A stretch of DNA of 30,453 bases from a virus (IMGVR_UViG_3300033076_000395:1-30453); one strand, 5' to 3'. Shown: positions 226-30,453, counted from the first letter of the stretch. Notes: a model not told the origin generated them from the letters alone. Translations and numbers: made by a program.

Positions 226-366
226 GTTATTATGCCTCCCCGTTTACAAGTAGACCCTGGCAAGCAAGATGGTCAACAACAAGCTGTGCTCTGGTCATGA
301 TCTGAGCAGAACGTGAAGCGTAACCACTTACATGTTCGAAGTCTGAAAGTTCAAAGTTTGCATCCT
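215..366. repeat. Direct repeat copy 1 (partner at 30302-30453)
   Basis: 146/152 identical at an offset of 30,087; mismatches at 248, 250, 251, 253, 260 and 289. Positions 290-366 match exactly (77 bp). Confidence 0.95.
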
Positions 367-1240
367 TATCAACAACGAGCTTGAGGTACTCAGTGTTGAG
401 GAAGTAAGCAGAAACGTTGTCTGGAGTTGCAGAGATTTGAACTGGTAGGAATGGATCAACGTACATCATTGCGCCGTTGAAAGCAAGAGCCAAACGACCA
501 CCATCAAGTACAGTTTCTTTCATGTAAAGCTCCTGTGCGAAGAGGAGCTTCTTGTAAGCCTTGTACATGTTAGGTGAGGAAAGGATCAAGTTAGGAGCGG
601 ATGTTGGGCTGAAGATTTGGCACTGGATATAAAGATCAGTTAGATCTTCGATACCAAGTGAACCAAGTGCATCAGTTCTCTGGTTCTGATAAGCAGTTGG
701 GAAAGCAGCTTTGCTGATACCACCAACTGTGTTTGTGCCAGAACCAAAAGCAACGTTTTCAAAGAAGCCTTTTGTTGAACCTGCGCCACTGAATACAGTA
801 CCGTTGAGGGTGCTGAGGTCAGAAAGAATTGCAGAAGAACCTGCAACAGCTTGCTTCTCGAACTCTCTCTTGAGTGTACCCATGACGGACTTGAGACGAG
901 CTTCAGCAATCTTTACAATTGCGCGGTCGCCTTTGTTAGCAAGTTCCTCTTTGCGGGTGATGACGATTGGAGCAACGAAGTCACAGAAATTGTAGCTTGC
1001 ATTTCTCATTGCGTCAGCAACGGCGAGGGATACTGGCTCATAACCAGTTGAAAGCTGAGTGATGCTTGAGTGCTCAGCTAGGATGAGTGGACGATCTACG
1101 GTGGAACCACCGTCTACTTCCTCAACTCCACCCTTTGCGCGGATCTGCTCAAGAAGAGGAGTAGACTTGAATAAGTTGTCTACTTCCTGATCCTTCACAA
1201 TGCGAAGGGTTGAAGAGAGGATATCATTTGAAATTGCCAT
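230..1240 (-). CDS. Major capsid protein (HK97 fold, podovirus-type)
   Basis: 336 aa, downstream of a scaffold-like gene. Segments DNLFKSTPLL, DGGSTVDRPL and EELANKGDRAIVKIAEARLK resemble podovirus capsid proteins. Strong AAGGAG RBS; higher GC than neighbours. Confidence 0.85.
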   Translation of the reverse strand: MAISNDILSSTLRIVKDQEVDNLFKSTPLLEQIRAKGGVEEVDGGSTVDRPLILAEHSSITQLSTGYEPVSLAVADAMRNASYNFCDFVAPIVITRKEELANKGDRAIVKIAEARLKSVMGTLKREFEKQAVAGSSAILSDLSTLNGTVFSGAGSTKGFFENVAFGSGTNTVGGISKAAFPTAYQNQRTDALGSLGIEDLTDLYIQCQIFSPTSAPNLILSSPNMYKAYKKLLFAQELYMKETVLDGGRLALAFNGAMMYVDPFLPVQISATPDNVSAYFLNTEYLKLVVDKDANFELSDFEHVSGYASRSAQIMTRAQLVVDHLACQGLLVNGEA

Positions 1241-1360
1241 ATTGATATCTCCTTAAGATTGATTAATAGTTTAATTGGAATTCGGTTTAAAAAGTTTGGG
1301 TTGTCCTTTCGGATCCTTTGTTTAGAAATTATTCCAAGCTAAACCAAACTTGGAGTTCCT
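1241..1360 (-). promoter_or_regulatory. Structured 5' leader of the major capsid gene
   Basis: Minus-strand pairings: AAGTTTGG/CCAAACTT, TTTAG/CTAAA, TCC-GAAA-GGA, and loop TTGGAAT complementary to downstream ATTCCAA. Confidence 0.45.
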
Positions 1361-1381
1361 ATATAATGTAATTATTTTTTT

Positions 1382-2260
1382 TTATTTTTTCTGTGCAGCG
1401 ATCCATTCGTAGATTGCAACTGAACCTTGCTTACGAACATGATCAGGAATTGCTGAACCAGATCCACGATTAGCTCCACCAACTTTTAGTCCATAATCCT
1501 GAGCAGCTTTCTTATATTGTGCAAGTTCAACCTGCATTTGTTTAGATGCTTCTGTGCTCTTCTGGCCTTTAACTAAATAATATGCTTTCTCTAATGTAAG
1601 TGTTTTATCTTTCATTAGCTCTCTAGCAATATCAACTTTATAGGTTTCTATATCTGGATTTTCTCTTTTAAAATTCTCAAGAGCAATCTGTCTTTTATTC
1701 ATCTCAGCTTCTTGACGCATTGGCTCAAGCATTTCTTTCATACGCTTGGCTACTTCTTGCTGGATTTTAGCTTCAATAGAATTAGCATTGAATGGATCAA
1801 GCTCTACTGAAGTCTCTGCTTGTTTAGAAACGCTATCATAAAATCCGCTTTCAAGTAGAGCCTTTCTATCAGCCTCTAATTGTTTGCGCTGTTCAGCAAT
1901 TGACTGAGTTTTCTTTGTATAGTCTGCTCTAAGATTTGCAATTATTTTTTTAGCATCTTCAGGAAGTCCATCAAAAACCTGATTATAATTTAATCCTTTA
2001 GTTTCTGACAGACCAAAATCTGGTGCACTATCTATATTAACATCATTGATGGAAGTTTCTTTTGCTGCTAAATTAGAAGCTAAAGTATCAGCTTCTTTAG
2101 CTGCAGCGTTAGCTCTTGCAGTTTCTAAAGCCCTAACAGCTTCCATTCTAGTTACCGCCTGTGGAGAGTTACCAACGGATACAGGGGTAGAAGAAGCTGA
2201 GCTTCCTGCCTCTGCTCCATTGTTCCCTGAAGGAGTTGGAGTTGAGTTATTTTCAGACAT
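1382..2260 (-). CDS. Capsid scaffolding protein
   Basis: 292 aa with a low-complexity N-terminus and coiled coil. Contains ADYTKKTQSIAEQRK, a motif typical of podovirus scaffolds. Lies immediately upstream of the capsid gene. Confidence 0.8.
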   Translation of the reverse strand: MSENNSTPTPSGNNGAEAGSSASSTPVSVGNSPQAVTRMEAVRALETARANAAAKEADTLASNLAAKETSINDVNIDSAPDFGLSETKGLNYNQVFDGLPEDAKKIIANLRADYTKKTQSIAEQRKQLEADRKALLESGFYDSVSKQAETSVELDPFNANSIEAKIQQEVAKRMKEMLEPMRQEAEMNKRQIALENFKRENPDIETYKVDIARELMKDKTLTLEKAYYLVKGQKSTEASKQMQVELAQYKKAAQDYGLKVGGANRGSGSAIPDHVRKQGSVAIYEWIAAQKK

Positions 2261-2290
2261 TTATTTTTTCCTTTTTATTTATAAGTTTAT

Positions 2291-2854
2291 TTACTGACCC
2301 ATTCTGCTCATCATTAATTTGTCCATTTCACCTGAAGCCATTGGAGGTGCACCACCTTCAACACCAACCTCTAATTTAACTTCAGTCTCTGGACCTTCTG
2401 GTGCTTCTCCTTCCATTCCTTTGGGTCTGCTCTTAAGGAACATCTGGAAGTCACGGTTCTTAGCTAGAAGAATTAATTTACCAGCAACCATTTCTATTCC
2501 ACGATCATCTACCATTGCATCAATTGAAGGAGCAAGGTCAGTAAGCATTGCATCATTTGCAGCTTTATTAACCATAGTAATAGCTTTAATTATTTCTGGA
2601 GAAAGCTTGCCGACAACATCTGCAGAAGCTGAAGGGATCTTTGGAAGAGATGGATCAAAGAGTGGAAGGATTTTATTAAGTGCGTCAACAAGTACATTGA
2701 TAGATCTGAGGGAATATTTTCCTTCAGGTGCAGCCATCTCAGCCATATCATCCATTTCTTTGTCAGCCTCAGCAGCCATTCCCATTGCCTTTTCTTCTTC
2801 GGTATCACCAGCTTCAGGCATTGGACCTAGAGCCATTAAATCTTCTTTAGCCAT
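2291..2854 (-). CDS. Acidic hypothetical protein in the head module
   Basis: 187 aa, AGGAG RBS, co-oriented between the zinc-ribbon and scaffold genes. Confidence 0.65.
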   Translation of the reverse strand: MAKEDLMALGPMPEAGDTEEEKAMGMAAEADKEMDDMAEMAAPEGKYSLRSINVLVDALNKILPLFDPSLPKIPSASADVVGKLSPEIIKAITMVNKAANDAMLTDLAPSIDAMVDDRGIEMVAGKLILLAKNRDFQMFLKSRPKGMEGEAPEGPETEVKLEVGVEGGAPPMASGEMDKLMMSRMGQ

Positions 2855-2885
2855 TTATAGATCTCCTAATATAAGTTTTCTTTTT

Positions 2886-3341
2886 TTATAATCCAGAATT
2901 AATATCGGCATCAAGCAAGCCTTTAGCCTTTAAATTATCTACAGAGAATGTTTCAGCATAAGCTTTGCTTTGATCTCCACCTGTAGACTTTAACATATCT
3001 CTTAGGGTTTCAACATCTTTCTCATGCTGAACGTGTTTAGCTTCTTCCCTTTCTACAATGCTATCAACGAAAGAAACACCACCGAAGTCTGATGCTGCGA
3101 TAAGTCCATTATCCCTAATATATTTTTCTTTTTCAATTGAGTTATTGAAGTGTCTTCCCAAAGAACGGTCGTATCCTCCACCACTATCTCCCCATCTTCC
3201 TGGTGTTCTAAGTGGTGCAGATAACTGGCGAAGCATAAGCTTATCACAAGTAGCACATTTAACTTCATCTTTTTTATCCCACTTAACTAAATGATCTTCT
3301 TTCTTTTTGCATGTATAGCAAACATAATCATAAACTGGCAT
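2886..3341 (-). CDS. FmdB-like zinc-ribbon protein
   Basis: MPVYDYVCYTC...VKCATC fits the MPxYxYxCxxC...CxxC pattern. Abuts the portal stop codon. Confidence 0.8.
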   Translation of the reverse strand: MPVYDYVCYTCKKKEDHLVKWDKKDEVKCATCDKLMLRQLSAPLRTPGRWGDSGGGYDRSLGRHFNNSIEKEKYIRDNGLIAASDFGGVSFVDSIVEREEAKHVQHEKDVETLRDMLKSTGGDQSKAYAETFSVDNLKAKGLLDADINSGL

Positions 3342-5003
3342 TTACTTTAAACCTCCTGGAAGTAATGGTGCAATAGATTGTACTGATGGATTACCTACAA
3401 CTTGAGTTGGGGTTGGAGGTGCTTCAGGAATAGCACCGAGAGGAGGAACATTTGGAGGATTTTGTGGAGGTGTTTGGGCCTGTTGTTTCTGTAAGTAATC
3501 TTTAACAGCTTCAGATTTAAATGTTTCTGGAAGATTAAGCACACGAACAACTTCATCTAATACTAATTCTTTTGGAACACCCAGTTCAATAAGCGTAGGT
3601 ATATTTGAAAGTAATTGTCCTTTGATTAAAGCCTCAGACATTGGTGTGCTAGAACTATCAGATGCATATACCTGAAAGTCTCCCATAATATCTTCAGCTG
3701 TTACTGGAGATAATTTTCCATCAATATATATTAGTGCAGTATCTCCTTCAGAAAGATAAAGTCCCAACACAGAGAAATATATTTTTGTAAGATTTTCTAT
3801 AACAGCATCACGCTCTCTAGCAAGGCGTCCAATTTCTGAGGAGGTATAAGCAGCAAGAGCAGCAGCTTCAGTTGCAGAAACTTTTGTAGCTTCTCCTCTA
3901 GTAAATGGTGCCATGATGGAACCCTTATCTTTATCTCCTGTAACGTGAGCATAATAAAGATCAAGCTCTGGAGGAGTTGGGTTCTGAGGAAGAGGTCTGA
4001 TTATTCCATCCATATTCTCTTCTTCTATTTCAATAAAGATACCATCAATACCAGCTGTAATCTGAGCCATCTGATCAGGATCAATAGAACCTTTCTTTAC
4101 TAGATACTGACGAGAAGCTTTACGTACAGCATTGGCTTGGAAGGATCTTATAATATTCATTTCAAAGATCTGGTCGTATACTCTTTTCATAGCAGAATAT
4201 CCCTCAAGAGGAACATCAGGTATACGATTAAAATAAAATGGAACGATTGGAATAGCTGGCTTTCCATCCCAAGATTTAAATGGAATACCTACTGGTGACT
4301 TCTCAAGTATCTTATCTTCTTTCCAGTTAGGAGAATAGAATACTAATTCATCTTCCATCAAATCATACATCTCAACTATCTTTACATATTCAAAGGTAGA
4401 AGATGGTGTCTCATACTCTTCCATCTTTTCTTTATAAAAATATTCAGTTGACATCTTAGACATACCAGACCAATCTTTAGAACCAAATCTTTCATCGGCT
4501 TCTTCGATTGTCATGTAATAAATATGTCCAACGAACTTCTGTAGATCCCAACGAGGAGCATCATAATCCAATATAACTTCCCATGGAGTAATAGCTACAG
4601 GCAAAACCTTTTGTAGAAGTACATCACTTTCTTTTGGAATTAATTTAAGAAATGAATGTGTATAGATTAAAGCCATACGAGAAGCTGCTTCAATCTCATG
4701 GCGTGACTTCTCTAGAAATTCATTAGCAATAAATCCAGACTTAGAAACATTACCCTTATTCTGTAAGCCTGATTTAAGAACTACAGCTGGATGCTTAGCA
4801 AATAGTGAAGCCATATAGCTTTCTATATAATTATAGCCTTCAGATACTTGAACCTGAAGCTGAGTATCTTTATAAGGAGATACTCCTTGCTCATCCCAGA
4901 AGTTTGTTTCATAGCTGGCTTTGTACCTTCTCATTTCTTTACGGTGCTTTTCCCAATACTTCTCGTGGAATGAAAGAATATTCTTGATTGTTTTTATATT
5001 CAT
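3342..5003 (-). CDS. Portal protein
   Basis: 553 aa directly after the terminase. Has IPIVPF..R.P....G.S and SATEA motifs seen in podovirus portals, plus a Pro/Gln-rich C-terminal tail. Confidence 0.85.
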   Translation of the reverse strand: MNIKTIKNILSFHEKYWEKHRKEMRRYKASYETNFWDEQGVSPYKDTQLQVQVSEGYNYIESYMASLFAKHPAVVLKSGLQNKGNVSKSGFIANEFLEKSRHEIEAASRMALIYTHSFLKLIPKESDVLLQKVLPVAITPWEVILDYDAPRWDLQKFVGHIYYMTIEEADERFGSKDWSGMSKMSTEYFYKEKMEEYETPSSTFEYVKIVEMYDLMEDELVFYSPNWKEDKILEKSPVGIPFKSWDGKPAIPIVPFYFNRIPDVPLEGYSAMKRVYDQIFEMNIIRSFQANAVRKASRQYLVKKGSIDPDQMAQITAGIDGIFIEIEEENMDGIIRPLPQNPTPPELDLYYAHVTGDKDKGSIMAPFTRGEATKVSATEAAALAAYTSSEIGRLARERDAVIENLTKIYFSVLGLYLSEGDTALIYIDGKLSPVTAEDIMGDFQVYASDSSSTPMSEALIKGQLLSNIPTLIELGVPKELVLDEVVRVLNLPETFKSEAVKDYLQKQQAQTPPQNPPNVPPLGAIPEAPPTPTQVVGNPSVQSIAPLLPGGLK

Positions 5004-5028: not shown

Positions 5029-6537
5029 CTAATAATGGCTTTTCTTTTTACCCCAATCATACCCTACTGGTTTCATCGCTAAAGGCATAGTTGCTCTACG
5101 TGTTTTTAAAACCATTTTCCATTTATCTATAGGGTTTTCTCTAACCTCAGTCCAAGGCTCCTTACCGCGTAGGCCCCAGTAAGCTAGCATCATAGAGAAT
5201 AATAAATCATCATGAGAACCATCTGGATGATCAGGTCTACCATCAGACCATATACAAGATTTAATTTGATCGAGTACTTCTTTATCTAATCCAACTATTA
5301 TTCCATCTTCGATAATCTCTTTCATATTTTGGAATAAACGAATACGTGTAGCACCAGTAGTTATAAAAGATTTTCCATCAGAAGTCTTCCATAGATTTTT
5401 ATAACCCCATTCCCTAAGTGCTTCTATAACTGCAGCACCATATGAATTTCCTTCAACAATAATCTTTGCTCCATTAAATTCTTGAGCTACATCTAAAACT
5501 TTAGCAGCCCAAGTTCTAGGTGTAATTATATTAGATACTCTATGATAAACAGGTTGCATTGTATCTATATTAATTACAGAGAGAGCTGAGTAATCTCCAC
5601 CTACTCCAGCAGATACATCAACTCCAATAATATAACGATCATTGTCATCCATATCCACTTTATATCTTCGTTCTTCTTTAGTTCCAAGATTAATCCCATT
5701 GATTTCTTTTGCAGCATCTCCCCAAAAATAAGATGTAGTCTTTCCTCCACGGAATGCTTCTTCAATAGTGCGAGGATATTCTCTGATAAATTTATCAAAG
5801 CCTAGTGTGGCTATTTGTTTTCTACGCCAAGAGATTTGTCCATCAGATAATCCTGCCTTCTTTAATCCCTTTTCTTCTTCTGTAAGTTTAACTATAGGAG
5901 AAGGGTCTGTGTAACTAGTATGAATAGTCCATGGAAAGAAGACAACCTTCCATTCATTCTTTCCAGCAATAGCATCATCAACTAATTTATTAAATAAATC
6001 TCCTGCCATGTTGGGAGAACTTTCAATAATGATTTGTCCATCACCAACGGCAGCAAGAATTGTAGCTAAGGTTTCTTCTGGGTTCTCATAGAAAGGAAAC
6101 TCAGATAAGTGAGCCATAGAGAATACATAAGATCTTGTACCTCCTTGTGCTCCTGCAGTAAATGCTTTTAATTCAGCCCCAGAAGATTTAGATCGAATAG
6201 TCTTGGCTGTAGACTTATCCATAATAGGCTGCAATTTTTTAGGAAGATTATTTAAAAATGTTTTGTCCGTGTTATGTAAGTTTTCTGCAGCTTCTCTAGT
6301 ATGACAAACAACACCAAGCTTTAATGGCTGGGTTGCATTAATCCACTGATAAAAATGCCAAGCTCTTACAAGTGTAGAAATACCAAGCTGACGTGCCTTA
6401 ACTACTATAATCCTTTTGTGACCAGAAGATAATATTTCTAGAAGTTCTTTCTGGGCTTCATTAAGATCAAAGAAGTTAAGGCGAGCTTTATCTTTATTAA
6501 ATATTGTAAGAGCTGGAATTAGATCTGATGCTTCCAT
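5029..6537 (-). CDS. terL: Terminase large subunit
   Basis: Walker A VVKARQLGIST, Walker B variant AHLSE, coupling motif IIIESS, and RNase H-like nuclease motifs YIIGVDVS, DYS and HDDLL. Confidence 0.95.
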   Translation of the reverse strand: MEASDLIPALTIFNKDKARLNFFDLNEAQKELLEILSSGHKRIIVVKARQLGISTLVRAWHFYQWINATQPLKLGVVCHTREAAENLHNTDKTFLNNLPKKLQPIMDKSTAKTIRSKSSGAELKAFTAGAQGGTRSYVFSMAHLSEFPFYENPEETLATILAAVGDGQIIIESSPNMAGDLFNKLVDDAIAGKNEWKVVFFPWTIHTSYTDPSPIVKLTEEEKGLKKAGLSDGQISWRRKQIATLGFDKFIREYPRTIEEAFRGGKTTSYFWGDAAKEINGINLGTKEERRYKVDMDDNDRYIIGVDVSAGVGGDYSALSVINIDTMQPVYHRVSNIITPRTWAAKVLDVAQEFNGAKIIVEGNSYGAAVIEALREWGYKNLWKTSDGKSFITTGATRIRLFQNMKEIIEDGIIVGLDKEVLDQIKSCIWSDGRPDHPDGSHDDLLFSMMLAYWGLRGKEPWTEVRENPIDKWKMVLKTRRATMPLAMKPVGYDWGKKKSHY

Positions 6538-6884
6538 TATCCCTTCTTTACAAGTTTAAGTTTAACATCATCCATCTTATTCTTAGTGATTGTATCTAGC
6601 CTTCTTCTGAAATCATCAGCAGTTACATCACCTTCAATCTTAAGTGTAGCCTCATAAGCTTCCAACTTTCTAAGAGCAATACGAGCTTCAATAATTTCAA
6701 TGACAGTTCTTGGTGTCATCTTATCCGCCAAAGTATTATTCCCTTCAATTTCTAACAGACAGAGATCAAGATAGTATTTAAGAACATCAGAATAGTTTTC
6801 ATCACGGGCTGCACGTCTTACTTTTCTGACAATCCTTTGGCGTCTAGTGTGACGAGAAGGTTTTACTTTAAGTTCATCTGACAT
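6537..6884 (-). CDS. Putative terminase small subunit
   Basis: 115 aa, helical with a basic N-terminus. Stop/start overlap with terL. Positional call only. Confidence 0.5.
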   Translation of the reverse strand: MSDELKVKPSRHTRRQRIVRKVRRAARDENYSDVLKYYLDLCLLEIEGNNTLADKMTPRTVIEIIEARIALRKLEAYEATLKIEGDVTADDFRRRLDTITKNKMDDVKLKLVKKG

Positions 6885-7240
6885 TTTATTTCCTCGATTT
6901 CCTTTTTAACTTTCTGCACACGCTTCCATGCAGTGGAGAGAGACACTCCTAATATATGCGATAAGCTTTCGAAATTCTTTGATCGCATCCAAGCAGCTAA
7001 TATTACTTGGTTTTCTTTGCTAAGCTTTTTAACAATCTTCTTAGCTAACTTCTTCTTCTCGATAAGTCTTTGATCTTCCTCGCTTTTTGGATCATCACCA
7101 TCTAGTCTAGCGATCATCTTATCCTCTTCATTCACATCATTGGATTGGTTCTGTATATGCTCAATAAAGGATAAATCTTTCTGTAAAAGTACTTTCGCTA
7201 TCCAGTCTTTGTTATTCATTTTTATCCTTTTCGTGCTCAC
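6863..7240 (-). CDS. Sigma-70 region-4-like HTH protein (start may be 7219)
   Basis: C-terminal LSKENQVILAAW...FESLSHILGVSLSTAWKRVQKVKK fits the region-4 HTH pattern. Confidence 0.7.
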   Translation of the reverse strand: MSTKRIKMNNKDWIAKVLLQKDLSFIEHIQNQSNDVNEEDKMIARLDGDDPKSEEDQRLIEKKKLAKKIVKKLSKENQVILAAWMRSKNFESLSHILGVSLSTAWKRVQKVKKEIEEIKCQMNLK

Positions 7241-7472
7241 TTATTATCTTAATTATCTCTTTACATTTAATAGAGATTTGTTCAGTTACCTTTTCACATT
7301 CCTCTATCTTTTGGATTAATCTATCCCACTTTTCTATATTACTTTCTAGACTTCCTTTTAGTTCCTGAAGGGATAGGTTCAGGTAGTCTTTGGATAATTG
7401 CTGGCTCTGCTGGGATAGCTTCTCCAATTGTATCCTCTCGTGTAACTTTAGATTTGAGTAAAGGTTTTTCAT
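7212..7472 (-). CDS. Coiled-coil hypothetical protein
   Basis: 86 aa with heptad Leu/Ile pattern; GGGAG upstream of the ATG. Confidence 0.5.
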   Translation of the reverse strand: MKNLYSNLKLHERIQLEKLSQQSQQLSKDYLNLSLQELKGSLESNIEKWDRLIQKIEECEKVTEQISIKCKEIIKIISEHEKDKNE

Positions 7473-7593
7473 TTTGTTTCTCCCATTGGTTTAATGCTTC
7501 TGATAAAGATTTATTTCCTAGCTCATCGAATAACATTTTTAATAACCACATTTGCTTTTCTGTAAGGTGGTTCTTTCTATCTGATATATCCAT
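7339..7593 (-). CDS. Hypothetical protein
   Basis: 84 aa with strong AAGGAG-ATAAT-ATG. Overlaps the next ORF by 134 bp. Confidence 0.6.
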   Translation of the reverse strand: MDISDRKNHLTEKQMWLLKMLFDELGNKSLSEALNQWEKQNEKPLLKSKVTREDTIGEAIPAEPAIIQRLPEPIPSGTKRKSRK

Positions 7594-7726: not shown

Positions 7727-7903
7727 TCTTGATGGAGGCTATTTTAAACTATTTTTTACTGACTTGTTGGGATGGGAGGGCGAAGCCCGACCTTAAGGAG
7801 CTTCGCTCCCTTGGAGAACTTTGTTCTCCCCGTGACCCCCTCACGGGTATAATATACATGAGGTTAGCGATTTGTCCAATGGACCTAAAAATAATTTAAA
7901 AAA
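7727..7903 (-). promoter_or_regulatory. Hairpin-array element A (candidate origin or promoter-leader)
   Basis: Perfect hairpins at 7778-7788, 7797-7809, 7813-7829 and 7829-7847. Boxes at 7727-7736, 7846-7862, 7871-7880 and 7887-7896 are shared in inverted form with element B. Confidence 0.7.
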
Positions 7904-7961
7904 GTTTTAGGATTGGTGGAAGATCTACTACTATCGGACTATATAGTATACGGAGGAAGAA

Positions 7962-11546: not shown

Positions 11547-11547
11547 A

Positions 11548-13339: not shown

Positions 13340-13348
13340 ATTATCTCC

Positions 13349-20221: not shown

Positions 20222-20248
20222 ATATTTATTCCTCTATATATGGCTTTT

Positions 20249-22831: not shown

Positions 22832-23515
22832 TTAATTATTTCCGTTAGATCCGCCAGCGGTTAATTCATTACTATCATGCCAAGCTTCAAGAGTAAATCC
22901 CCAGTTAATTAAGAATATATCATTTCCATTTGTATATCCCTCAAGAGATATGTGATGCCATCCCTTGCTTAACTTTTTCATTTGGAAGCCTGTAAAGAAT
23001 TCTCTTTGACGAAGTGCTGGAGAAGTTGCATACCACTCTTCATGTGTAAATGTTTTTGTATCAAGATATGTTATACCATCAATTGCAACATTCAGAGTTC
23101 CTTCTCTTTCGTTTGCAGTTGTGGTTGATAATCCAAAGTTATACATAAGAGGACAAGCAAAGAATTGGAATAGGGCAGTACATTCACTTTCAACATAGAA
23201 TGATATAGATGTGCTTGGATAATATCTTCTAGTATTATTTCCATTTACTGGCTGAGTTGTAGCACCAGCAATCCAAGATAATTTTTCTTCTACAGTTGTA
23301 AATACCTGAGAACCACATACTCCAGAAACAAAGTTAAATGTATTTGGAAGTGGATTAAATGATCCTTTCATTATGTGATGTTTTTGAAAAGGTCCATCAA
23401 CATCTCCAATAAGAACGCCACCATTTATATAAGTTTGTAGTTTATCAAATGCATCCTGAAAACTATCAGCTAGAATTGGTGCGTCAGCTACAACTGGTGT
23501 AAAAGTAAATGACAT
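22832..23515 (-). CDS. Tail appendage protein, paralogue 3
   Basis: 227 aa; N-terminal ILADSFQDAFDKLQTYINGG helix and a beta-sandwich-like C-terminus. Confidence 0.55.
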   Translation of the reverse strand: MSFTFTPVVADAPILADSFQDAFDKLQTYINGGVLIGDVDGPFQKHHIMKGSFNPLPNTFNFVSGVCGSQVFTTVEEKLSWIAGATTQPVNGNNTRRYYPSTSISFYVESECTALFQFFACPLMYNFGLSTTTANEREGTLNVAIDGITYLDTKTFTHEEWYATSPALRQREFFTGFQMKKLSKGWHHISLEGYTNGNDIFLINWGFTLEAWHDSNELTAGGSNGNN

Positions 23516-24462
23516 TATCTATCTCCCTTTTGTAGAACTATTGCTCCTATATTCATTCTTTCCATTTTTAATTCTAATGGATAAAATGGAGTTAGATCTG
23601 CAGCGTTTTGTAAGAATGCCCTAGTGTCATAACCTGGAGCTGTATAGTGTTGAAGTGTCATAATTCCAGTAGTTGCAATACCAAGCTGACGAATAACTAA
23701 TGGTGTATTATCTTCATGCACATAGTTTAAACAACCATGCAATCTTCTCATTGGTTTTACTTCTCTACCAATAGTTACTTCTTCTGATGCTAGATCATAA
23801 ACTGTAATACCATCATCAAGTAATCTTTCATCTGGATTTGTAGATGCTGATGGAGGATCTGTTTGTGGTATAGACATTGGATCTACTATTCCATAATCCC
23901 ACCAAACAGCTCTGCCTGGAAATACTTTCATATTATCTGAAGATCTTGGAGCAGCTACATCCCAATAAACTGGAAAGAATATCATGCAGTTAGATTTATC
24001 GTTTGTTGCTATAGGCCAATTTGCAGCAATGTTATTTAATCTTACAGAATGTATTATTGCTGAGTAGTGAAAACGAAGTACGTCACCTTTATTAAGAACT
24101 AGATAAGGAGGAACATCCCAAATTAAACGTGATGCTCCACCGCCTTGTGACCAGTTTAAAAAGTAAGCTCCCCTTCCGTTTACAGTATTGTCTTCAATAG
24201 AACCACCAGCACCAGTTCCTATCATAAATGTATTGGTTGTTCCATCATCCCATTTATTATAAGCATATGCTGCAGCTTTCATAATAGGAGAAGTTGACTG
24301 AAGGTGTCTTATATCAATTCCTTCAGAACGAACATTATCTTTATTAATTGAAGTTGTAGCAGTAGCTATAGCAGAAAATTTTGCATTAACATCTGCTGCA
24401 AGTATTTCTGCTGGCTGTGCTGGAGGAATTGGCGCTACGTTATCTGTAATTATTTTTGACAT
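23515..24462 (-). CDS. Tail appendage protein, paralogue 2
   Basis: 315 aa; N-terminal ILAADVNAKFSAIATATTSINKDNV, a fibre-anchor-like helix. Confidence 0.55.
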   Translation of the reverse strand: MSKIITDNVAPIPPAQPAEILAADVNAKFSAIATATTSINKDNVRSEGIDIRHLQSTSPIMKAAAYAYNKWDDGTTNTFMIGTGAGGSIEDNTVNGRGAYFLNWSQGGGASRLIWDVPPYLVLNKGDVLRFHYSAIIHSVRLNNIAANWPIATNDKSNCMIFFPVYWDVAAPRSSDNMKVFPGRAVWWDYGIVDPMSIPQTDPPSASTNPDERLLDDGITVYDLASEEVTIGREVKPMRRLHGCLNYVHEDNTPLVIRQLGIATTGIMTLQHYTAPGYDTRAFLQNAADLTPFYPLELKMERMNIGAIVLQKGDR

Positions 24463-25091
24463 TATCTATACCTATTAAGAGCGAAAAGATTTCCTCCAGA
24501 ATAATAGAAGAACTGTTTGTCAGTTCCTGATGTGGAGTTTCTTGATGGAAGTTTAAATCCAATCTTTATTTCTGCAGGACCAGTTGCTATTGGAACTGCA
24601 CCAACTAAATGGATTGTTCCCCATCTTTGATAAAGAAAGTGTGTTTCTGCTATAACATTATTATTTAAAACGATTTGAAACTGAACCCAGTCACCAGATG
24701 TATTTCCACTGATAACATCTTTATCCATCCAATACCAGCAATTAAATTCAATATGAAGAGTTCCTTCAATTGCCTCTATCTTTAATGGATATACTTCATT
24801 ATATTCCCAGCTACTTACATAATCTTTATATACAAGACCATCTACAGTTGTAACTGGAATTACTTCATTATATAAAGTAACTCTGCTTTCTGGCATCTTT
24901 ACATAAGTTTGCCAATATTGATGAAAAGCATAATCTTCAAATTTACTTCCATCAAGAGAAGCATCAGGAATATTTTCTCTATCCATACCAGAGTTTAAAA
25001 TAGCAGTAGATGAATTATAGATTGTGTCAAATTCCTGACCATCTATAATATTCTTCTCTCTAATTTCTCCTTGCTTAGCTAATATAGGCAT
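24462..25091 (-). CDS. Tail appendage protein, paralogue 1
   Basis: Likely start is the ATG at 25091 (MPILAKQ), with AGGAG upstream. Contains IIDGQEFDTIYN...LNSGMDRENI. Confidence 0.55.
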   Translation of the reverse strand: MPILAKQGEIREKNIIDGQEFDTIYNSSTAILNSGMDRENIPDASLDGSKFEDYAFHQYWQTYVKMPESRVTLYNEVIPVTTVDGLVYKDYVSSWEYNEVYPLKIEAIEGTLHIEFNCWYWMDKDVISGNTSGDWVQFQIVLNNNVIAETHFLYQRWGTIHLVGAVPIATGPAEIKIGFKLPSRNSTSGTDKQFFYYSGGNLFALNRYR

Positions 25092-25092
25092 G

Positions 25093-27318
25093 TTAGTAGG
25101 CGCTCCTTGGTCTTGCTGCTTTTGTTTCTGTACCACTTGAATTAAATTCTAATGAGTAATCAATTATGATTATATCATTGGTTGTCTGTAATCCAACGGA
25201 GAACGTAGAAGCAGCCATGTTAGCAACTGGAAATTTAAGTTGAGTATACATTGGTATTTCCCATCTTGCTACAGTGTGATCATTATTGGTGGTTGGACCA
25301 AATACTAATTCTCCAGTTGTTGAATTATAAATATATTGCTCAAGATATTCTGGACGTTGACCTAATCCTGAATTTGATTGGGTGTAATTATAATCCCAAT
25401 CTTTATTATAGAATACATTATATAGATTTGAACCTTCAGTAAAGCAATTTATATAAACCTGCTTTACGTGTTTCTTTAATTGTCCAATTCCAAATACTTG
25501 ATTTGCAGAAATCCAAGTTGAACTAAGTGGACCCTTCTCTTCTATAGAATAATATCCAGGTGTCTGTAATTGTGGAGGATGAAAGGTTGTTCCGTGTCCA
25601 GCATTTCTTCCACGAGAAATAAAGAATAGTCCAGTTTCATCTGGTACTAACCCAGTATATCCAAATGGTGTACCTAATGACTGACCTACATTATGTCCAA
25701 ATATAAATTCACCTCTAGCATCTACAGTTAAACATCCTACGGGAAAGCCTTCTCTTAAAGACCAAGACTTCTTTTCCATATGAAATACTACGCCTAGGTT
25801 ATTTATATCTGATCCATCAGCAGCAAAGTAAAGATGGTATTCTCTCCACTTTTCTGAGTAAGCTCCGCAAGCTCTAGCAATCATTGACTTATTTAATCTC
25901 TTCATCGTATCAATAATTGGTTTGGAAATCTTTGTAACTTCCATTTTAGAACCACCATCAAAACCACCAGAGACTAAGAAGATGCCATCATTTGAAAGGA
26001 ATACAACGCCAACCTCTGGAATAAGAGTTATGGTATGTAGTGCTCTAGTTCCTATTCCTTGTACAAGTGGAGATAATGTAAATCCATTTGTAGCATCTCC
26101 TCTAATTAAATCAATTGCATTCTCACGGAAGACTAGTAAATTATTATAATAAGTAAATAATCCAGTTACATCACCGCCTTGACGAGATCCTACTGAGAAG
26201 AAATCGAGTGCTCTATATTGATCGACTTTGAGTGGTTGGCTGTAGTAAATTTTCTGGGGGTCTGTTTGACCACCATCAATAAATAAACAATTCTTAAAAG
26301 TTGCAGAAAAACGTGTGGCTGGAGCAGGGAATAAAATAGAAGCATCGTCATTTGGGGCTACTGCTCCAAGTCTTGTATCCTTTGTATAATCAACATAGTT
26401 AGTTTCAATATTGTTAATGATGGTATCAACATAATAATATATCTCTTCTAATGTTTCACCATCTTGAAGATTTTTTGTTCTCCATATTTTTCTAGCAATA
26501 CATCCTGCAGGACCAAGTGGAACATTCTCAAGATAAACTGCTTGGGCACGATCATCAAAGTTTGGATCTCCAGCATGATGAGTTATCCATCCAGCAGCAA
26601 TAGAAGGAGCTGAGAGTGGACTTTCAGATCCATCTTCCATCAAGAAAGATACCTTCCATCTATAAAGATTTTCTGCATCTTTTGTCTTTATTCCAAGGCC
26701 ATAAGATTTATCCATCTTAAATGTATGTGGTTCAATTGGCATAACAGTCTGATCTGCTATACCAGAAGATCCATCAACGTTAGGTGTCCAAGGAAGTGGA
26801 GGATTTGGTGCTTCCATAAATCCAAGACCTACTGTTTTTACACCATCAAACTTTATTGGTCTTCCATTTCCAGACAGAATGATAAGGTTCTTTCCAATTG
26901 GATTATAATGTGTATATACCTCATCTGCCGCAGGAACTGATCTTTGACTATCTATAGTTATTTTATTTAAAGTATTTCCTTTCCAATAATGCAATTTCAT
27001 ATTTGCATTTGCATCAGTAGGAAATATCTTAGTAGTTGCTCCAGCATAGTCCTGCTCAAAAAGAAGAAATGACTTTGCTCCTTGATGGGTATTCCAAAAA
27101 TAAGTTGAATTTACTGGACCTCCATTTTGAAATCCAGCCCAATCATTTCTAGATGTTATTGCAGGAACAATACTTTCATATCCAAGTCTATTATCCCAAC
27201 CCATTGACTTTGTATCTATAGTCCAGTTGGTAAGTTTATAACTTGAATTTTCTACAGGATCTATACTTTCATCAATACCAAGTATGCCCTTATATTGTGG
27301 CTTGTTATCAGTTTGCAT
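25093..27318 (-). CDS. Tail nozzle / DNA stabilization protein (P22 gp10 / T7 gp12-like)
   Basis: 741 aa, beta-propeller-like (KIYYSQP, GGDVTGL, LLVFRENAI, VVFLSNDGIF). Follows the adaptor gene. Confidence 0.75.
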   Translation of the reverse strand: MQTDNKPQYKGILGIDESIDPVENSSYKLTNWTIDTKSMGWDNRLGYESIVPAITSRNDWAGFQNGGPVNSTYFWNTHQGAKSFLLFEQDYAGATTKIFPTDANANMKLHYWKGNTLNKITIDSQRSVPAADEVYTHYNPIGKNLIILSGNGRPIKFDGVKTVGLGFMEAPNPPLPWTPNVDGSSGIADQTVMPIEPHTFKMDKSYGLGIKTKDAENLYRWKVSFLMEDGSESPLSAPSIAAGWITHHAGDPNFDDRAQAVYLENVPLGPAGCIARKIWRTKNLQDGETLEEIYYYVDTIINNIETNYVDYTKDTRLGAVAPNDDASILFPAPATRFSATFKNCLFIDGGQTDPQKIYYSQPLKVDQYRALDFFSVGSRQGGDVTGLFTYYNNLLVFRENAIDLIRGDATNGFTLSPLVQGIGTRALHTITLIPEVGVVFLSNDGIFLVSGGFDGGSKMEVTKISKPIIDTMKRLNKSMIARACGAYSEKWREYHLYFAADGSDINNLGVVFHMEKKSWSLREGFPVGCLTVDARGEFIFGHNVGQSLGTPFGYTGLVPDETGLFFISRGRNAGHGTTFHPPQLQTPGYYSIEEKGPLSSTWISANQVFGIGQLKKHVKQVYINCFTEGSNLYNVFYNKDWDYNYTQSNSGLGQRPEYLEQYIYNSTTGELVFGPTTNNDHTVARWEIPMYTQLKFPVANMAASTFSVGLQTTNDIIIIDYSLEFNSSGTETKAARPRSAY

Positions 27319-28811
27319 TAACCCACCTTAGTTAGCTTAGAAGCATAACGATAATCAAATAGGGATTTTCCAGGACCAAATGGTTTCTTAACATGAATTG
27401 CATTTGCTTCTGTAAGCCAACGGTTCTCAAGGTTTAGCAATTCTTTATCTGCTTTTTCTTTATAAACCTTTGCTTGATTTAAATTATTATGCTTTAAGAA
27501 TACTTCTTCACATGTTCTATATACAAGATATTTATGACCAGAGGTTGGTACGTCAGGACAATCCTGATCATCTACCAATCTTTGTGGACGATAAAGATAA
27601 CGAAGAGTTATGACATAATCAGTATCTTGTCTTGGATAAAGACGAATGCGTTGATAAACACCACCATGCTCTGGAAGTGGTTTTCCATTTGTAAGCATTT
27701 CTTTGTAAAGATAAGTTGTTCTGCTTGTTACTGAAGATCCAAATGGAACTTCTTCAGTTGAATAAAAGCGATCAGAGTTTGGAACGCGAACATAATATCT
27801 CTTAAGTAATCCATCATAGACATCAGATGTTTGCATACCTGTTATGCTAATTCCATCAAGAGCTGTAACATTTGGAACTACTTCATCTGAGATTGGAGAT
27901 GGTCCACTTTCCCATTCAACAAGAGTTCCCTGATCTCCAGATCCACCACCCTGTAAATAATTCTGAGCTTGTACGAAGGTATAGCATACTTGATATTTTC
28001 CAGCAAAAGGTGCTCTCAAGCCATCAAAAACTGGACCAGCATTTACTGCTGCTGATGGCTCAATAAGAGGAGGTTTAACATAATAATCTCCTTCAGGAAT
28101 ATAATCAGTTGGTCTTCCTCTTTCATCCATATTTACAGCCCATTGTTCATCAATGTATTTAGACATTGGATCAAATGGCCTTAAATCTGCTTGAGCATTT
28201 GTACCCACAGTTTCCCTCAAGCCAAGACCAAGAATGGCTACGCAGTCCTGTGGAAGCGTTATATAGCGATGCTTAAAGGTGCATACGATATCAGGATTAG
28301 AGTTTCCAATTCGTGGTGTACGCTCATAGATTGAAGCTAATCTTTGCTGATCTTTATCCATTCTCTGGAAGTAAACACGAGACTTTGAATTATTAGATCC
28401 AGTTGTAATATTAGTTACCCAATAATCTGCAGGAATATTCTGAAGAGGTTGATTAGTGATAATATCTGTACCAGAAGTAATAGATATGATACATCCAGCA
28501 GCTAACCAAAAAGGAACATCTGCAGCTGGACATTCTATATAAGCATAGTATCCACCAGTACCAGTTCCTATTGGTCCATTATAATCATTGTAGAGTTGTA
28601 CCTGAGAACCTACTAGATCATCTACAGGAAGAGCTACGTCAGTATGAGCATGAAGCTTTATCTCTTTCTGTGCCCACTTCCACTTACGATCAGAGAATAG
28701 GCTTAAGTAAATATCGTTTAGAATAGAACGAATTTGCTGACGATATTCTGGAACCTCTGGATTGTAATCGAGGATATTGCCAACCTCGTCAATTAGTTTT
28801 CCTAAATTCAT
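27318..28811 (-). CDS. Head-tail adaptor (P22 gp4 / T7 gp11-like) with insertions
   Basis: N-terminal helices ending in WKWA, then ITLPQDC, RIRLYPRQD and a C-terminal PDVP...HKYLVY helix pair. Confidence 0.65.
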   Translation of the reverse strand: MNLGKLIDEVGNILDYNPEVPEYRQQIRSILNDIYLSLFSDRKWKWAQKEIKLHAHTDVALPVDDLVGSQVQLYNDYNGPIGTGTGGYYAYIECPAADVPFWLAAGCIISITSGTDIITNQPLQNIPADYWVTNITTGSNNSKSRVYFQRMDKDQQRLASIYERTPRIGNSNPDIVCTFKHRYITLPQDCVAILGLGLRETVGTNAQADLRPFDPMSKYIDEQWAVNMDERGRPTDYIPEGDYYVKPPLIEPSAAVNAGPVFDGLRAPFAGKYQVCYTFVQAQNYLQGGGSGDQGTLVEWESGPSPISDEVVPNVTALDGISITGMQTSDVYDGLLKRYYVRVPNSDRFYSTEEVPFGSSVTSRTTYLYKEMLTNGKPLPEHGGVYQRIRLYPRQDTDYVITLRYLYRPQRLVDDQDCPDVPTSGHKYLVYRTCEEVFLKHNNLNQAKVYKEKADKELLNLENRWLTEANAIHVKKPFGPGKSLFDYRYASKLTKVG

Positions 28812-28851
28812 GCTTATAGTTTCCTCTATAGATAGTCGTTTATTTTTTTTT

Positions 28852-29010
28852 AATTATTTTTGGACGAATTGGACAAAATAGATTTCTCATGTATATTATA
28901 CCTGCAGAGCAGGGGTTGAGGGCATCGCCCTCCACGGAGCGTAGCTCCCAAGGTTCCTCTCTAGTTTAAGTTAAGGTAAGTTAAAGTAAAGTTAAAGATT
29001 TCCATCAAGA
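28852..29010 (+). promoter_or_regulatory. Hairpin-array element B (inverted relative of element A)
   Basis: Boxes at 28852-28861, 28868-28877, 28886-28902 and 29001-29010. Perfect hairpins at 28901-28913, 28918-28932 and 28936-28948. Confidence 0.7.
28965..28997 (+). repeat. Degenerate tandem repeat (T)TAA(A)G x6
   Basis: TTTAAG TTAAG GTAAG TTAAAG TAAAG TTAAAG. Confidence 0.6.
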
Positions 29011-29096: not shown

Positions 29097-29118
29097 TATA
29101 TAATAGTAGGAGAACAAA

Positions 29119-29475
29119 ATGTTTAAGACGATACCAAATTATCCAGACTATATGATCAATGAACTTGGAGATGTTTATTCTTTAAAATTTAATAAGATAA
29201 AAAAGCTAAAGCCAACTTACACAACATGCTCTACAATAAAATATAATAGCGTTCAGCTAGCTAACGATGATGGAAAAAAGACTTTTAAAATTCACTGGCT
29301 TGTCTGGGAAACTTTCGTAGGACAAAGACCAAAGAAAGGATCTGGACTTGTTATTGATCACATAGATCGTAATGGAATGAATAATGAACTTTCTAATCTT
29401 CGTGTTATTACACATTCAGAAAATCAAATAAATTCAGCTAGATGTGACAGAGCAAAAGAGGTCAGAGGTTCTTGA
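29119..29475 (+). CDS. NUMOD4-HNH free-standing homing endonuclease
   Basis: NUMOD4 KTIPNYPDYMINELGDVYS; IHWLVWETF; HNH motif VIDHIDRNGMNNELSNLRVITHSEN. AGGAG RBS. Confidence 0.9.
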   Translation: MFKTIPNYPDYMINELGDVYSLKFNKIKKLKPTYTTCSTIKYNSVQLANDDGKKTFKIHWLVWETFVGQRPKKGSGLVIDHIDRNGMNNELSNLRVITHSENQINSARCDRAKEVRGS

Positions 29476-29801
29476 TGGAAAATATGATTAAGACTACAGC
29501 CGAGATTGAGAAGGAACTTCAAATCAAAATGGTTCCACCATTTTCTCTTGGTGATAATGTAACAATTGTAGTTAGAAGAACTTGGGGTGACCCTGATTTT
29601 TGTCAGTATAAACTCCTAGCACCAGTTAAAAATGGTGTCTGGTTAGCATATACAGATGAAGATTGTGTTCCAGAAGATAATAAGATTTTAGAAATAGAAG
29701 AATGTGATATAATAGATTTTACAGAAGAGATGCAATATAAACAATCAGCACCAGAGACTGGTGTACCCATTAGTAAGTTTGATTTTTCTGAATGGGATTA
29801 A
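29475..29801 (+). CDS. Acidic hypothetical protein
   Basis: Likely start is the ATG at 29475 (TGATG overlap with the HNH stop). Ends at the terminator. Confidence 0.6.
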   Translation: MENMIKTTAEIEKELQIKMVPPFSLGDNVTIVVRRTWGDPDFCQYKLLAPVKNGVWLAYTDEDCVPEDNKILEIEECDIIDFTEEMQYKQSAPETGVPISKFDFSEWD

Positions 29802-29806
29802 ATAAG

Positions 29807-29842
29807 AAAAGCCCCTCAACCATTTCTGGAAGAGGGGCTTTT
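29807..29842. terminator. Bidirectional intrinsic terminator
   Basis: AAAA-GCCCCTC...GAGGGGC-TTTT between convergent genes. Confidence 0.8.
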
Positions 29843-29853
29843 AGTTTTCTAGA

Positions 29854-30312
29854 TTAGAATTTCTTGAAAACCCATACTGGAGCAACACCAGCAGCAGAAG
29901 CTGCGAGTGATACGCCAACTGGTGGTGCAATGTTTGCAGCGACGTTTGCCTCAGCAGATGGAGCAGAAGCTACAACGCAGAGTGGAACACCAGCTCCAGC
30001 AACGCCAGCAACAACCTTAGCTGTGCCAACATAACCAGAAACTACAACCTTAACTTTTCCACCAGTTGAAGCTGCTTCGGTAGCAACGCCAACTACAAGT
30101 GAACTGCCAAGTGGAACGTTTACTGATGGTATAACTGTAACAACTTTTGTTGCGCCAGTTTTGCTTGTATCGAAAGTAACCCAGTCACCTATGGCAACTG
30201 CGGAACCTGCGATAAAAGTCTCTACCTGTGAGCGATTTGATGGGCTTGCACCAACTGCTCCACCAGCACTGTCAACTACATCGAGTGACTGAATAAGTGT
30301 AGAAGTAGCCAT
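29854..30312 (-). CDS. Capsid decoration/cement protein
   Basis: 152 aa, A/V/G-rich, with AIGDWV and VVGVATEAA...VKVVVSG motifs. Lies directly after the capsid stop codon. Confidence 0.7.
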   Translation of the reverse strand: MATSTLIQSLDVVDSAGGAVGASPSNRSQVETFIAGSAVAIGDWVTFDTSKTGATKVVTVIPSVNVPLGSSLVVGVATEAASTGGKVKVVVSGYVGTAKVVAGVAGAGVPLCVVASAPSAEANVAANIAPPVGVSLAASAAGVAPVWVFKKF

Positions 30313-30453
30313 GTTATTATGCCTCCCCGTTTACGATAATACCCTGACAAGCAAGATGGTCAACAACAAGCTGTGTTCTGGTCATGATCTGAGCAGAACG
30401 TGAAGCGTAACCACTTACATGTTCGAAGTCTGAAAGTTCAAAGTTTGCATCCT
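30302..30453. repeat. Direct repeat copy 2 (circularising overlap)
   Basis: Matches 215-366 with 6 mismatches; the last 77 bp are exact. Confidence 0.95.
30317..30453 (-). CDS. Major capsid protein 3' end, second allele (partial)
   Basis: Encodes ...MTRTQLVVDHLACQGIIVNGEA versus ...MTRAQLVVDHLACQGLLVNGEA in copy 1. Confidence 0.85.
   Translation of the reverse strand, partial: DANFELSDFEHVSGYASRSAQIMTRTQLVVDHLACQGIIVNGEA

What the first reader, a model, noticed from the sequence alone, without database searches (positions are those of the whole stretch)
290..30376. Apparently complete 30,087-bp tailed-phage genome with a full virion set but no recognisable replication or lysogeny genes
Seen: the ends close into a circle with sensible gene order across the join (capsid then decoration gene). 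Roughly 85-90% of the sequence is virion, packaging or lysis genes. The remaining ORFs are all 188 aa or shorter, and by eye none shows polymerase, primase, helicase, HUH-Rep, SSB, integrase or repressor motifs; the only Walker A I found is in the terminase. Established: satellites such as P4, PICIs and PLEs show the reverse pattern, with their own replication genes and borrowed virion parts. Inference: this could be a 'virion-only' replicon that relies on host enzymes, a helper or a second segment, acting at the twin hairpin elements. An unrecognised small initiator or nicking by the HNH or PD-(D/E)XK protein is also possible.
Basis: partly seen in the sequence, partly recalled or inferred. 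Interest (0 to 1): 0.8.

Follow-up and report, generated by a model that had tools for sequence, protein, structure and literature searches.

The report
Replication-less podovirus clade with full virion
This complete 30-kb bacterial virus encodes its own particle, DNA packaging and cell-bursting enzymes but no recognisable DNA-copying protein, and it sits in a branch of equally stripped phages whose sister branch has such genes, so it likely copies its DNA with enzymes borrowed from a co-infecting phage that has not yet been identified.

Summary
Window 290-30376 is a real 30,087-bp circle: an independent contig spans the join at 98.9% identity, and 1-289 is an alternative allele of the decoration gene that rejoins the same flank. 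No ORF matches a polymerase, primase, helicase, initiator, SSB or integrase. The two 188-aa orphans are a PD-(D/E)XK nuclease with a resolvase-like fold and a probable sigma-like regulator. Of 18 near-complete relatives (27-34 kb), 9 carry an O-like initiator/loader module or a primase-helicase, and all 9 have a lysin. The other 9, like the window, show no replication gene and fall on one side of the capsid tree; five of these also lack a detectable endolysin. Best reading (0.55): a tailed satellite virus that borrows replication from a co-infecting phage, acting at an origin-like element present twice here. No helper was found. T4-type late promoters are absent, and one large-phage candidate gave only a weak, post hoc motif hint. 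Rivals are host-enzyme-only replication (0.22) and an unrecognised small initiator (0.18). The scan has noted replication-less tailed phages on other DNA before. In print, MiniFlayer-type satellite viruses are closest. New variant of a known kind.

The parts
1..289 (-). Alternative allele (assembly bubble): capsid C-terminus and start of a second decoration-protein version; not part of the 30,087-bp circle
   Evidence: (X3 contig rejoins 29809-29859)
290..30376 (.). Complete circularly closed genome, 30,087 bp
230..1240 (-). Major capsid protein, 336 aa (3' end completed by 30317-30376 on the circle); 25-28% identical to Myxococcus phage Mx8/Mx9 capsids
   Evidence: phrog_9953 E 2e-29
1382..2260 (-). 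Scaffold protein (inferred from position and conservation)
2291..3341 (-). Conserved 187-aa protein and FmdB-type zinc-ribbon protein of the head block
3342..5003 (-). Portal protein
   Evidence: phrog_332 E 7e-6, weak SU10_portal
5029..6537 (-). Terminase large subunit
   Evidence: phrog_2 E 4e-31, Terminase_6C
6537..6884 (-). Likely terminase small subunit (by position; no family match)
6863..7240 (-). Sigma-70 region-4-like regulator upstream of the packaging genes; likely late-gene activator; counterparts in 7 of 9 replication-less relatives (G001, G008, G010, G011, G016, G021 by HMM; G002 by reading)
7212..7593 (-). Two overlapping small ORFs (84 and 86 aa) in different frames, overlap kept in 4 of 4 genomes read
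7760..7905 (+). Element A: GNA-triloop hairpins (GGGCGAAGCCC, GGAGCGAAGCTCC), GTATAATAKACATGAG core, TTTGTCCA box, A-tract; candidate origin or promoter
7962..8528 (+). 188-aa probable ECF-sigma-like regulator (C-terminal sigma4/LuxR-type HTH; low-confidence model); absent from G001 and G002
8491..8670 (-). 59-aa ORF, conserved in close relatives
8753..9319 (+). 188-aa PD-(D/E)XK nuclease; nearest solved folds are Holliday-junction resolvases Hjc and RecU
   Evidence: (pLDDT 91)
9489..9965 (-). N-acetylmuramoyl-L-alanine amidase endolysin
   Evidence: Amidase_2 E 9e-10, phrog_822 E 6e-36
10099..10398 (-). Likely holin (one hydrophobic N-terminal stretch; inferred)
10593..13180 (-). Fibre/receptor-binding block (317, 73, 325, 144 aa; inferred from position and composition)
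13349..22800 (-). Three likely internal/ejection proteins (2290, 599, 250 aa); the largest has no family or PDB match and has 1707-2330-aa counterparts in both branches
22832..28811 (-). Short-tail genes: 227, 315, 224 aa, 741-aa likely nozzle, 497-aa adaptor
   Evidence: SU10_adaptor E 7e-10; synteny
28835..28975 (-). Element B: second copy of the hairpin element, inverted relative to A; opposite orientation in five related loci
29119..29475 (+). NUMOD4-HNH homing-type endonuclease, accessory
29472..29801 (+). 109-aa ORF of no known family; homologue in G002
29854..30312 (-). Capsid decoration protein (allele on the circle)
   Evidence: weak Phage_cement_2

Best explanation
This is a complete short-tailed phage that encodes its own head, tail, packaging and lysis proteins but no recognisable replication protein, and it likely behaves as a satellite virus whose DNA is copied by the enzymes of a co-infecting phage. 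Shown: closed 30,087-bp genome; no replication or integration family among its ORFs; membership of a branch in which 9 of 9 near-complete relatives show no replication gene, beside a sister branch in which 9 of 9 carry one. Inferred: (1) the branch lost an ancestral initiator or primase-helicase module once; (2) a helper's primase, helicase and polymerase would start at a cis element, here the twin hairpin element, in relatives an AT-rich stretch with short repeats; (3) the PD-(D/E)XK nuclease would resolve branched replication products before packaging, the job RusA does in the sister branch; (4) the sigma4-like and sigma-like proteins would switch on late genes with host RNA polymerase, and the amidase and holin would lyse the cell. 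Host and helper are unknown.
For: Same-sized relatives split cleanly. G009 has an O-like initiator (phrog_4617 E 2e-12). G022-G024 share a gene pair whose second member matches a P-like helicase loader in G023 (E 5e-6), with Sak in G023 and G024. G025-G029 have a VapE primase-helicase (E < 1e-57). None of these six query types hits any replication-less genome. The 9 replication-bearing genomes form one side of a branch in capsid (100/99) and portal (100/100) trees; with three outgroups the replication-less set is one side at 77/77. Lysin detected in 9 of 9 replication-bearing but 4 of 9 replication-less genomes, G011 left out as incomplete (Fisher p 0.029, genomes not independent). G006, closed by an exact 123-nt repeat, keeps a holin-like gene but shows neither replication genes nor an endolysin; host enzymes cannot stand in for an endolysin (own knowledge). 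G008 and G010 are also closed and lack both. Precedent: MiniFlayer, MulchRoom and Ando encode capsids, lack replicases and need a helper (PMC10690885, parts 2-3 of 6 and passages; PMC13587820 passages). Weak hint only: a loosened motif of large Immutovirus-related phages, at most 1 mismatch, precedes 7 of 25 window genes (shuffle mean 2.1), 41 of 246 in replication-less records (19.1), 19 of 178 in replication-bearing ones (13.1) and 88 of 391 in the large phages (36.3).
Against: No helper was identified. T4 late promoter TATAAATA precedes 1 of 24 window genes. The strict large-phage motif precedes 0 of 32 window genes, and 1 gene in the 10 replication-less genomes against 4 in the 9 replication-bearing ones. 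In 1.57 Mb of those large phages, replication-less genomes share only a distant terminase, with no DNA match and no copy of the element; the lysin and fibre matches belong to replication-bearing relatives. The loosened motif was chosen after seeing the data, overlaps a sigma-70 -10 box, and the candidate phages were themselves found with a pattern taken from this clade. The element occurs only in the closest relatives: 7 of 7 metagenome hits. The window keeps its own lysis and regulators, unlike Ando. ORFs under about 90 aa in relatives were mostly not scanned, and a divergent lysin or initiator could be missed. The single-loss rooting is not strongly supported (77/77).
Confidence: 0.55

Rival explanations
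1. Autonomous lytic phage with a protein-free origin: host RNA polymerase or primase primes at the hairpin and -10 element, the host restart primosome and polymerase copy the circle (ColE1- or G4-like), and the nuclease makes or resolves concatemers.
For: The element joins a TATAAT-like core to GNA mini-hairpins; all 3 such hairpins with stems of 4 bp or more in the window lie in the two copies. Stems vary while staying paired across relatives. Mini-hairpins are reported at the G4 primase origin, RSF1010 ssiA and N4 promoters (PMC13037366 passages). Copy B occurs in both orientations. The window has its own lysis and regulators, and no helper was found.
Against: It does not explain the loss of a detectable endolysin in five replication-less relatives. 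The element is not shared across the branch. Three hairpins per genome is within chance as a count (shuffle mean 1.14, maximum 5). I found no cultured tailed phage of this kind in searches.
Confidence: 0.22
2. Autonomous phage with an unrecognised small initiator (the 84/86-aa overlapping pair, the 188-aa HTH protein, the 59-aa ORF or the PD-(D/E)XK protein) that binds short repeats and recruits the host helicase.
For: Three 10-nt repeats beside the element changed in step between G001 (CTTGTTGGAA) and G002 (CTTGTAGGAA), as iterons do. The 84/86-aa pair is conserved in 4 of 4 close genomes. Several small ORFs have no family match.
Against: No candidate is shared across the replication-less branch except the sigma4-like gene, the small terminase type and unrelated-looking PD-(D/E)XK nucleases. 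The 188-aa HTH protein is missing from G001 and G002 and resembles sigma factors. The nuclease fold is resolvase- or restriction-like.
Confidence: 0.18
3. One segment of a two-part genome, or a circle closed by an assembly artefact, with replication genes on other DNA.
For: The contig has a branch at 1-289. No single read or contig spans the whole circle in the runs laid.
Against: The branch is an allele. Five relatives close independently at 29.3-31.9 kb. Replication-bearing relatives are the same size. The element was found on no contig without family genes.
Confidence: 0.05

Closest known systems
MiniFlayer and MulchRoom, satellite viruses of Streptomyces BE-cluster phages (PMC10690885; read parts 2-3 of 6 and passages)
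   Same: Own terminase, portal, capsid, scaffold and adaptor; no primase or replicase; an HNH gene; MiniFlayer has no integrase and a short-tail look.
   Different: Those are 14.8-17.4 kb linear genomes with a known helper. This is 30 kb with a full short-tail block, three large ejection-type proteins, its own amidase and holin and sigma-like regulators, an autonomous sister branch of the same size, and no known helper.
Ando, satellite of AndoPrime (PMC13587820; passages)
   Same: Encodes capsid and packaging genes, lacks replication genes.
   Different: Ando is 13.9 kb, has an integrase, and lacks tail and lysis genes. This genome has tail and lysis genes and no integrase.
P4, PICIs, PLEs, cf-PICIs (PMC10690885 introduction, passages)
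   Same: Proposed dependence on a helper phage.
   Different: They integrate, carry their own replicases and borrow capsids or tails. This is the reverse.
Acinetobacter satellite Aci01-2-Phanie (seen only through passages of the review PMC11476376)
   Same: Small podovirus-like genome that needs a larger phage.
   Different: Phanie has a phi29-like polymerase and borrows the helper's tail.
Myxococcus phages Mx8/Mx9 (Myxoctovirus)
   Same: Nearest cultured capsid relatives, 25-28% identity; similar portal-scaffold-capsid-decoration-tail order in the stretch read.
   Different: 49-53 kb and far too distant for membership or for host assignment.
Host-primed origins with GNA mini-hairpins: phage G4 complementary-strand origin, RSF1010 ssiA, N4 early promoters (PMC13037366; passages)
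   Same: GCGNAGC hairpins in a non-coding control element.
   Different: No sequence match beyond the loop motif was tested; no virion RNA polymerase was detected here.

Membership tests
Bacteriophage satellite virus (MiniFlayer type) | Encodes its own virion and packaging proteins | tested here: met
Bacteriophage satellite virus (MiniFlayer type) | No recognisable replicase, primase or helicase | tested here: met
   folds of the two 188-aa ORFs
Bacteriophage satellite virus (MiniFlayer type) | Cannot replicate without a helper virus | not testable with these tools
   no culture; indirect support from lysin loss in relatives
Bacteriophage satellite virus (MiniFlayer type) | Identifiable helper sharing signals, genes or particles | tested here: inconclusive
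   one candidate group tested: strict motif and gene sharing negative, loosened motif weakly positive
Bacteriophage satellite virus (MiniFlayer type) | Codon usage fitted to helper tRNAs | not tested
   no helper to test against; the window has no tRNA gene
P4 / PICI / PLE / cf-PICI satellites | Integrase and chromosomal integration | tested here: not met
   no integrase family; 2 genome-collection hits for the capsid, of which L101 is a stand-alone 29,422-bp phage-only contig and L102 was not read
P4 / PICI / PLE / cf-PICI satellites | Own replication genes, borrowed capsid or tail | tested here: not met
Replication-less tailed phages wired to T4-type late promoters (earlier notes of this scan) | TATAAATA before late genes | tested here: not met
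   1 of 24 window upstream regions; 0-2 in each replication-less relative
N4-like phages with virion RNA polymerase and hairpin promoters | Virion RNA polymerase domain in the giant protein | tested here: inconclusive
   2290-aa protein: no Pfam, NCBIfam or PDB sequence match, one non-significant PHROG row, no DxDxD or DxxGRxY motif; not folded
Holliday-junction resolvase (Hjc/RecU-like) for ORF 8753-9319 | PD-(D/E)XK fold with conserved D...ExK | tested here: met
   D46 and K62 invariant, E60 nearly so, in 25 sequences; Foldseek E 3e-4 to RecU, Z 8.3, rmsd 3.3 over 112 residues to Hjc
Holliday-junction resolvase (Hjc/RecU-like) for ORF 8753-9319 | Junction-specific cleavage | not testable with these tools
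   restriction enzyme NhoI scores within 1 Z unit (7.6) and I-Ssp6803I close behind (7.2)
ECF sigma factor for ORF 7962-8528 | Region 2 and region 4 domains | tested here: inconclusive
   C-terminal HTH matches sigma4 and LuxR-type domains at Z 5-7; no match at E <= 0.001; model pLDDT 61
Host-primed, protein-free origin (G4-, ssi- or ColE1-like) | Replicates without an element-encoded protein | not testable with these tools
   only the sequence features were seen

The most novel reading that the evidence does not exclude
A widespread branch of full-sized tailed phages has dropped every replication protein and replicates from a cis origin alone. Either it is a virophage-like parasite of larger phages that keeps a complete virion and, in this member, its own lysis timer, or it is the first tailed phage with a protein-free, host-primed origin. 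The autonomous sister branch shows what was lost.
Probability: 0.75. Interest if true: 0.8.

Novelty: new variant of a known kind. Interest (0 to 1): 0.66.

Why it matters
The phage satellite viruses described in the papers I read are a few 14-17 kb Streptomyces isolates. Here a branch of 30-kb phages with complete short tails lacks replication genes while its sister branch keeps two different replication modules, which gives a natural before-and-after comparison for how a phage becomes a parasite of other phages. If such genomes are satellites, many 'complete phages' in viromes are not independent killers, and their abundance should track helpers rather than hosts. If they use host enzymes alone, the element is a compact protein-free origin that can be tested on a plasmid.

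Tried and rejected
Assembly artefact and extra sequence on branch 1-289: rejected. Rfam and tRNA scans: nothing. DNA search of 6500-9500 in cultured phages: no match. G001's non-coding region gave only short AT-rich matches. Element search in viral contigs with a loose pattern: 119 stretches from 49 of 64 parts of the collection; only L238 scored weakly (E 0.0085) against an element profile, the rest look like chance. T4 late promoter: not found. Large Immutovirus-related phages as helper: strict motif, shared genes and DNA negative; loosened motif weak. Sister phages as helper: no similarity between the origin-like regions and the sister genomes beyond AT-rich noise. Host from lysin or capsid relatives: uninformative; the two genome-collection hits lie in metagenome bins of an archaeon and of Maricaulis, and I take them as probable misbinning. 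The family search of whole genomes with Amidase_2 missed the window's own amidase, so I did not rely on it for absences. No RNA holder was listed. The nozzle tree did not finish. PADLOC gave only homing-endonuclease and weak HTH matches. Literature searches found no description of this clade or of a 30-kb fully tailed satellite virus; the library lacks most subscription papers, and no supplements were read. PMC12772148 (part 1 of 2) and PMC8776804 (passages) were read and did not bear on the mechanism.


Full report
1. Observation. The contig is a 30,087-bp circle (290-30376) with a 77-nt exact end overlap. The first 289 bases hold a second version of the capsid C-terminus and of the decoration gene. 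Public contigs settle the topology. In run X2, overlapping contigs at depth 70-83 run through the join with the circle's allele. In run X3, one 4,283-bp contig carries the other allele and rejoins the window at 29809-29859. G003 spans the join at 98.9% identity over 19.9 kb.

2. Gene content. The late block holds terminase, portal, scaffold, capsid, decoration, adaptor, a likely nozzle, three further tail proteins, three large ejection-type proteins, fibres, a likely holin and an amidase (several names are inferred from position). It covers 80.7% of the circle by a strict list. Scans of 34 ORFs (Pfam, PHROGs), 17 of them again (NCBIfam) and 21 shadow ORFs (PHROGs) found no polymerase, primase, helicase, initiator, SSB or integrase family at E <= 0.001. 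ORF 8753-9319 folds confidently (pLDDT 91) into a PD-(D/E)XK nuclease, nearest to the junction resolvases Hjc and RecU, with restriction and homing enzymes close behind. ORF 7962-8528 has a C-terminal sigma4/LuxR-type HTH, and many of its weak matches are ECF sigma factors. ORF 6863-7240 is a sigma region-4-like protein just upstream of the packaging genes; that position recalls RinA/ArpU late activators (recalled, not tested). ORF 29119-29475 is an accessory NUMOD4-HNH endonuclease.

3. The family. Scans with capsid and terminase (286 and at least 485 hits, the best 80 kept each time) gave 18 relatives of 27-34 kb that I read in full. Shorter records (G003-G005, G012-G015) were not scored for absence, and G017-G020 and G030 were not fetched. 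Nine carry replication genes: G009 an O-like initiator; G022-G024 a gene pair whose second member matches a P-like helicase loader in G023, with Sak in two; G025-G029 a VapE primase-helicase with RusA. Nine do not: G001, G002, G006, G007, G008, G010, G011 (incomplete), G016 and G021. For these, 48 early-region ORFs were scanned and about 40 more; ORFs under about 90 aa were mostly not scanned. Five of the nine close on themselves: G001 by a 9-nt overlap, G002 in frame within a fibre gene, G006 by an exact 123-nt repeat, G008 and G010 by 183- and 212-nt overlaps. The replication-bearing set is one side of a branch at 100/99 (capsid) and 100/100 (portal). With three distant outgroups, and G011, G027 and the partial records left out, the replication-less set is one side at 77/77, which allows but does not prove a single loss. 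Genome size is the same in both sets, so the lack is not truncation.

4. Lysis. A lysin was detected in 9 of 9 replication-bearing genomes but in 4 of 9 replication-less ones (window and G002 amidase, G001 and G007 endolysin of phrog_465); none was found in G006, G008, G010, G016 or G021. Fisher's p is 0.029, but the genomes are related, so this is one or a few events. G006, G008 and G010 are closed circles. Loss of both replication and endolysin is what a helper-dependent virus can afford and what host enzymes cannot make up for (own knowledge).

5. The cis element. Two inverted copies flank the two small early regions. Each has GNA-loop hairpins, a conserved GTATAATAKACATGAG core and a TTTGTCCA box. 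Stems differ among relatives but stay paired, and copy B lies in the opposite orientation in five related loci, two of them beside an HNH-like ORF read by eye. All 3 GNA hairpins with stems of 4 bp or more in the window lie in these copies, though 3 per genome is within chance as a count. All 7 metagenome hits for the core are in close relatives. G001 and G002 have a different element, with three 10-nt repeats that changed in step. G001, G002, G006, G008 and G010 have a 300-nt stretch of 10-21% G+C, against a minimum of 24% in replication-bearing genomes; the window, G007, G011, G016 and G021 do not (26-31%). Mini-hairpins are reported at primase origins and at N4 promoters (PMC13037366, passages). 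An origin is a fair reading; a promoter is not excluded.

6. Search for a helper. Earlier notes of this scan describe replication-less tailed phages on other DNA, tied to large T4-related phages by late promoters. That signal is absent here. A pattern built from this clade's upstream motif hit 15 viral contigs, among them large Immutovirus-related phages. In six such records a CTA(T/C)TTA(T/C) motif is enriched upstream of genes (42 sites, about 3 expected). Its strict form precedes no window gene. These phages share no specific gene, DNA or element with replication-less genomes, but share a lysin at 39-49% identity with three replication-bearing ones, a possible sign of a common host. A loosened motif is about twofold enriched in replication-less records and in the large phages, and 1.45-fold in the sister branch; it was chosen after the fact and overlaps a -10 box, so it is a lead only.

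7. Mechanism and odds. Helper-dependent satellite virus 0.55; host-primed protein-free origin 0.22; unrecognised initiator 0.18; second segment or artefact 0.05. Shown: closure, gene content, branch structure, patchy lysin loss, the element. Inferred: every step of replication.

8. Comparison. It works like MiniFlayer in encoding a virion without a replicase (PMC10690885, parts 2-3 of 6 and passages), but helper dependence, the defining feature, could not be tested. It differs in size, in its complete tail and ejection set and in its own lysis. It is not a P4-, PICI-, PLE- or cf-PICI-type element. Searches found no paper on this clade; the library lacks most subscription journals and no supplements were read.

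9. Verdict. Real and lineage-wide; a new variant of the bacterial satellite-virus kind if a helper is needed, categorically new if host enzymes suffice. Interest 0.66.

Noticed in passing
window 7212-7593; G001 700-1130; G002 24520-25000; L123 8060-8530: Two small ORFs overlap in a fixed +1 frame relation in 4 of 4 genomes; the first has a conserved N-terminal helix, the second looks like a coiled coil. A programmed frameshift fusing them is possible.
   Followed up: partly
window 1-225 and 29854-30312; L002, L004, L006-L008 after the capsid gene: The decoration gene is exchanged as a cassette between near-identical capsid genes, with several alleles in the population.
   Followed up: partly
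G007 28643-29527; G008 552-1145; G010 28616-29814; G016 27367-28335: Replication-less relatives carry DNA-modification genes: a TET-associated glycosyltransferase, MT-A70 methylases, and a 322-aa ORF without HMM match that recalls thymine-hypermodification enzymes (recalled).
   Followed up: no
G031, G032, G034, G035, G036, G039; L343: Large Immutovirus-related phages with Shine-Dalgarno sites and a CTATTTAT motif upstream of genes; G032 shares a lysin at 49% identity with G023.
   Followed up: partly
G022-G029 versus replication-less genomes, upstream regions: The two branches differ in upstream words: AATGTTT in 7 of 9 replication-bearing and 0 of 10 replication-less genomes; ATACTT in 9 of 10 against 1 of 9. 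They also use different small-terminase types.
   Followed up: no
G025-G029 capsid genes: The capsid protein has an insertion of about 40 residues near its C-terminus in the primase-helicase branch.
   Followed up: no
L101 (G016:C118) and L102: Family members lie on contigs in metagenome bins labelled as an archaeon and as Maricaulis; L101's contig is phage-only, so probably misbinned.
   Followed up: partly
L123 9534-9875; G002 25575-26027; L476 2885-3214; L479 112-501: Different homing-type endonucleases (endonuclease VII-like, NUMOD4-HNH) sit beside the early control regions of close relatives.
   Followed up: partly
window 13202-13339; G006 16324-17223 and similar: Clusters of small lysine/arginine-rich ORFs between the giant protein and the fibre genes, possibly DNA-condensing core proteins.
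   Followed up: no
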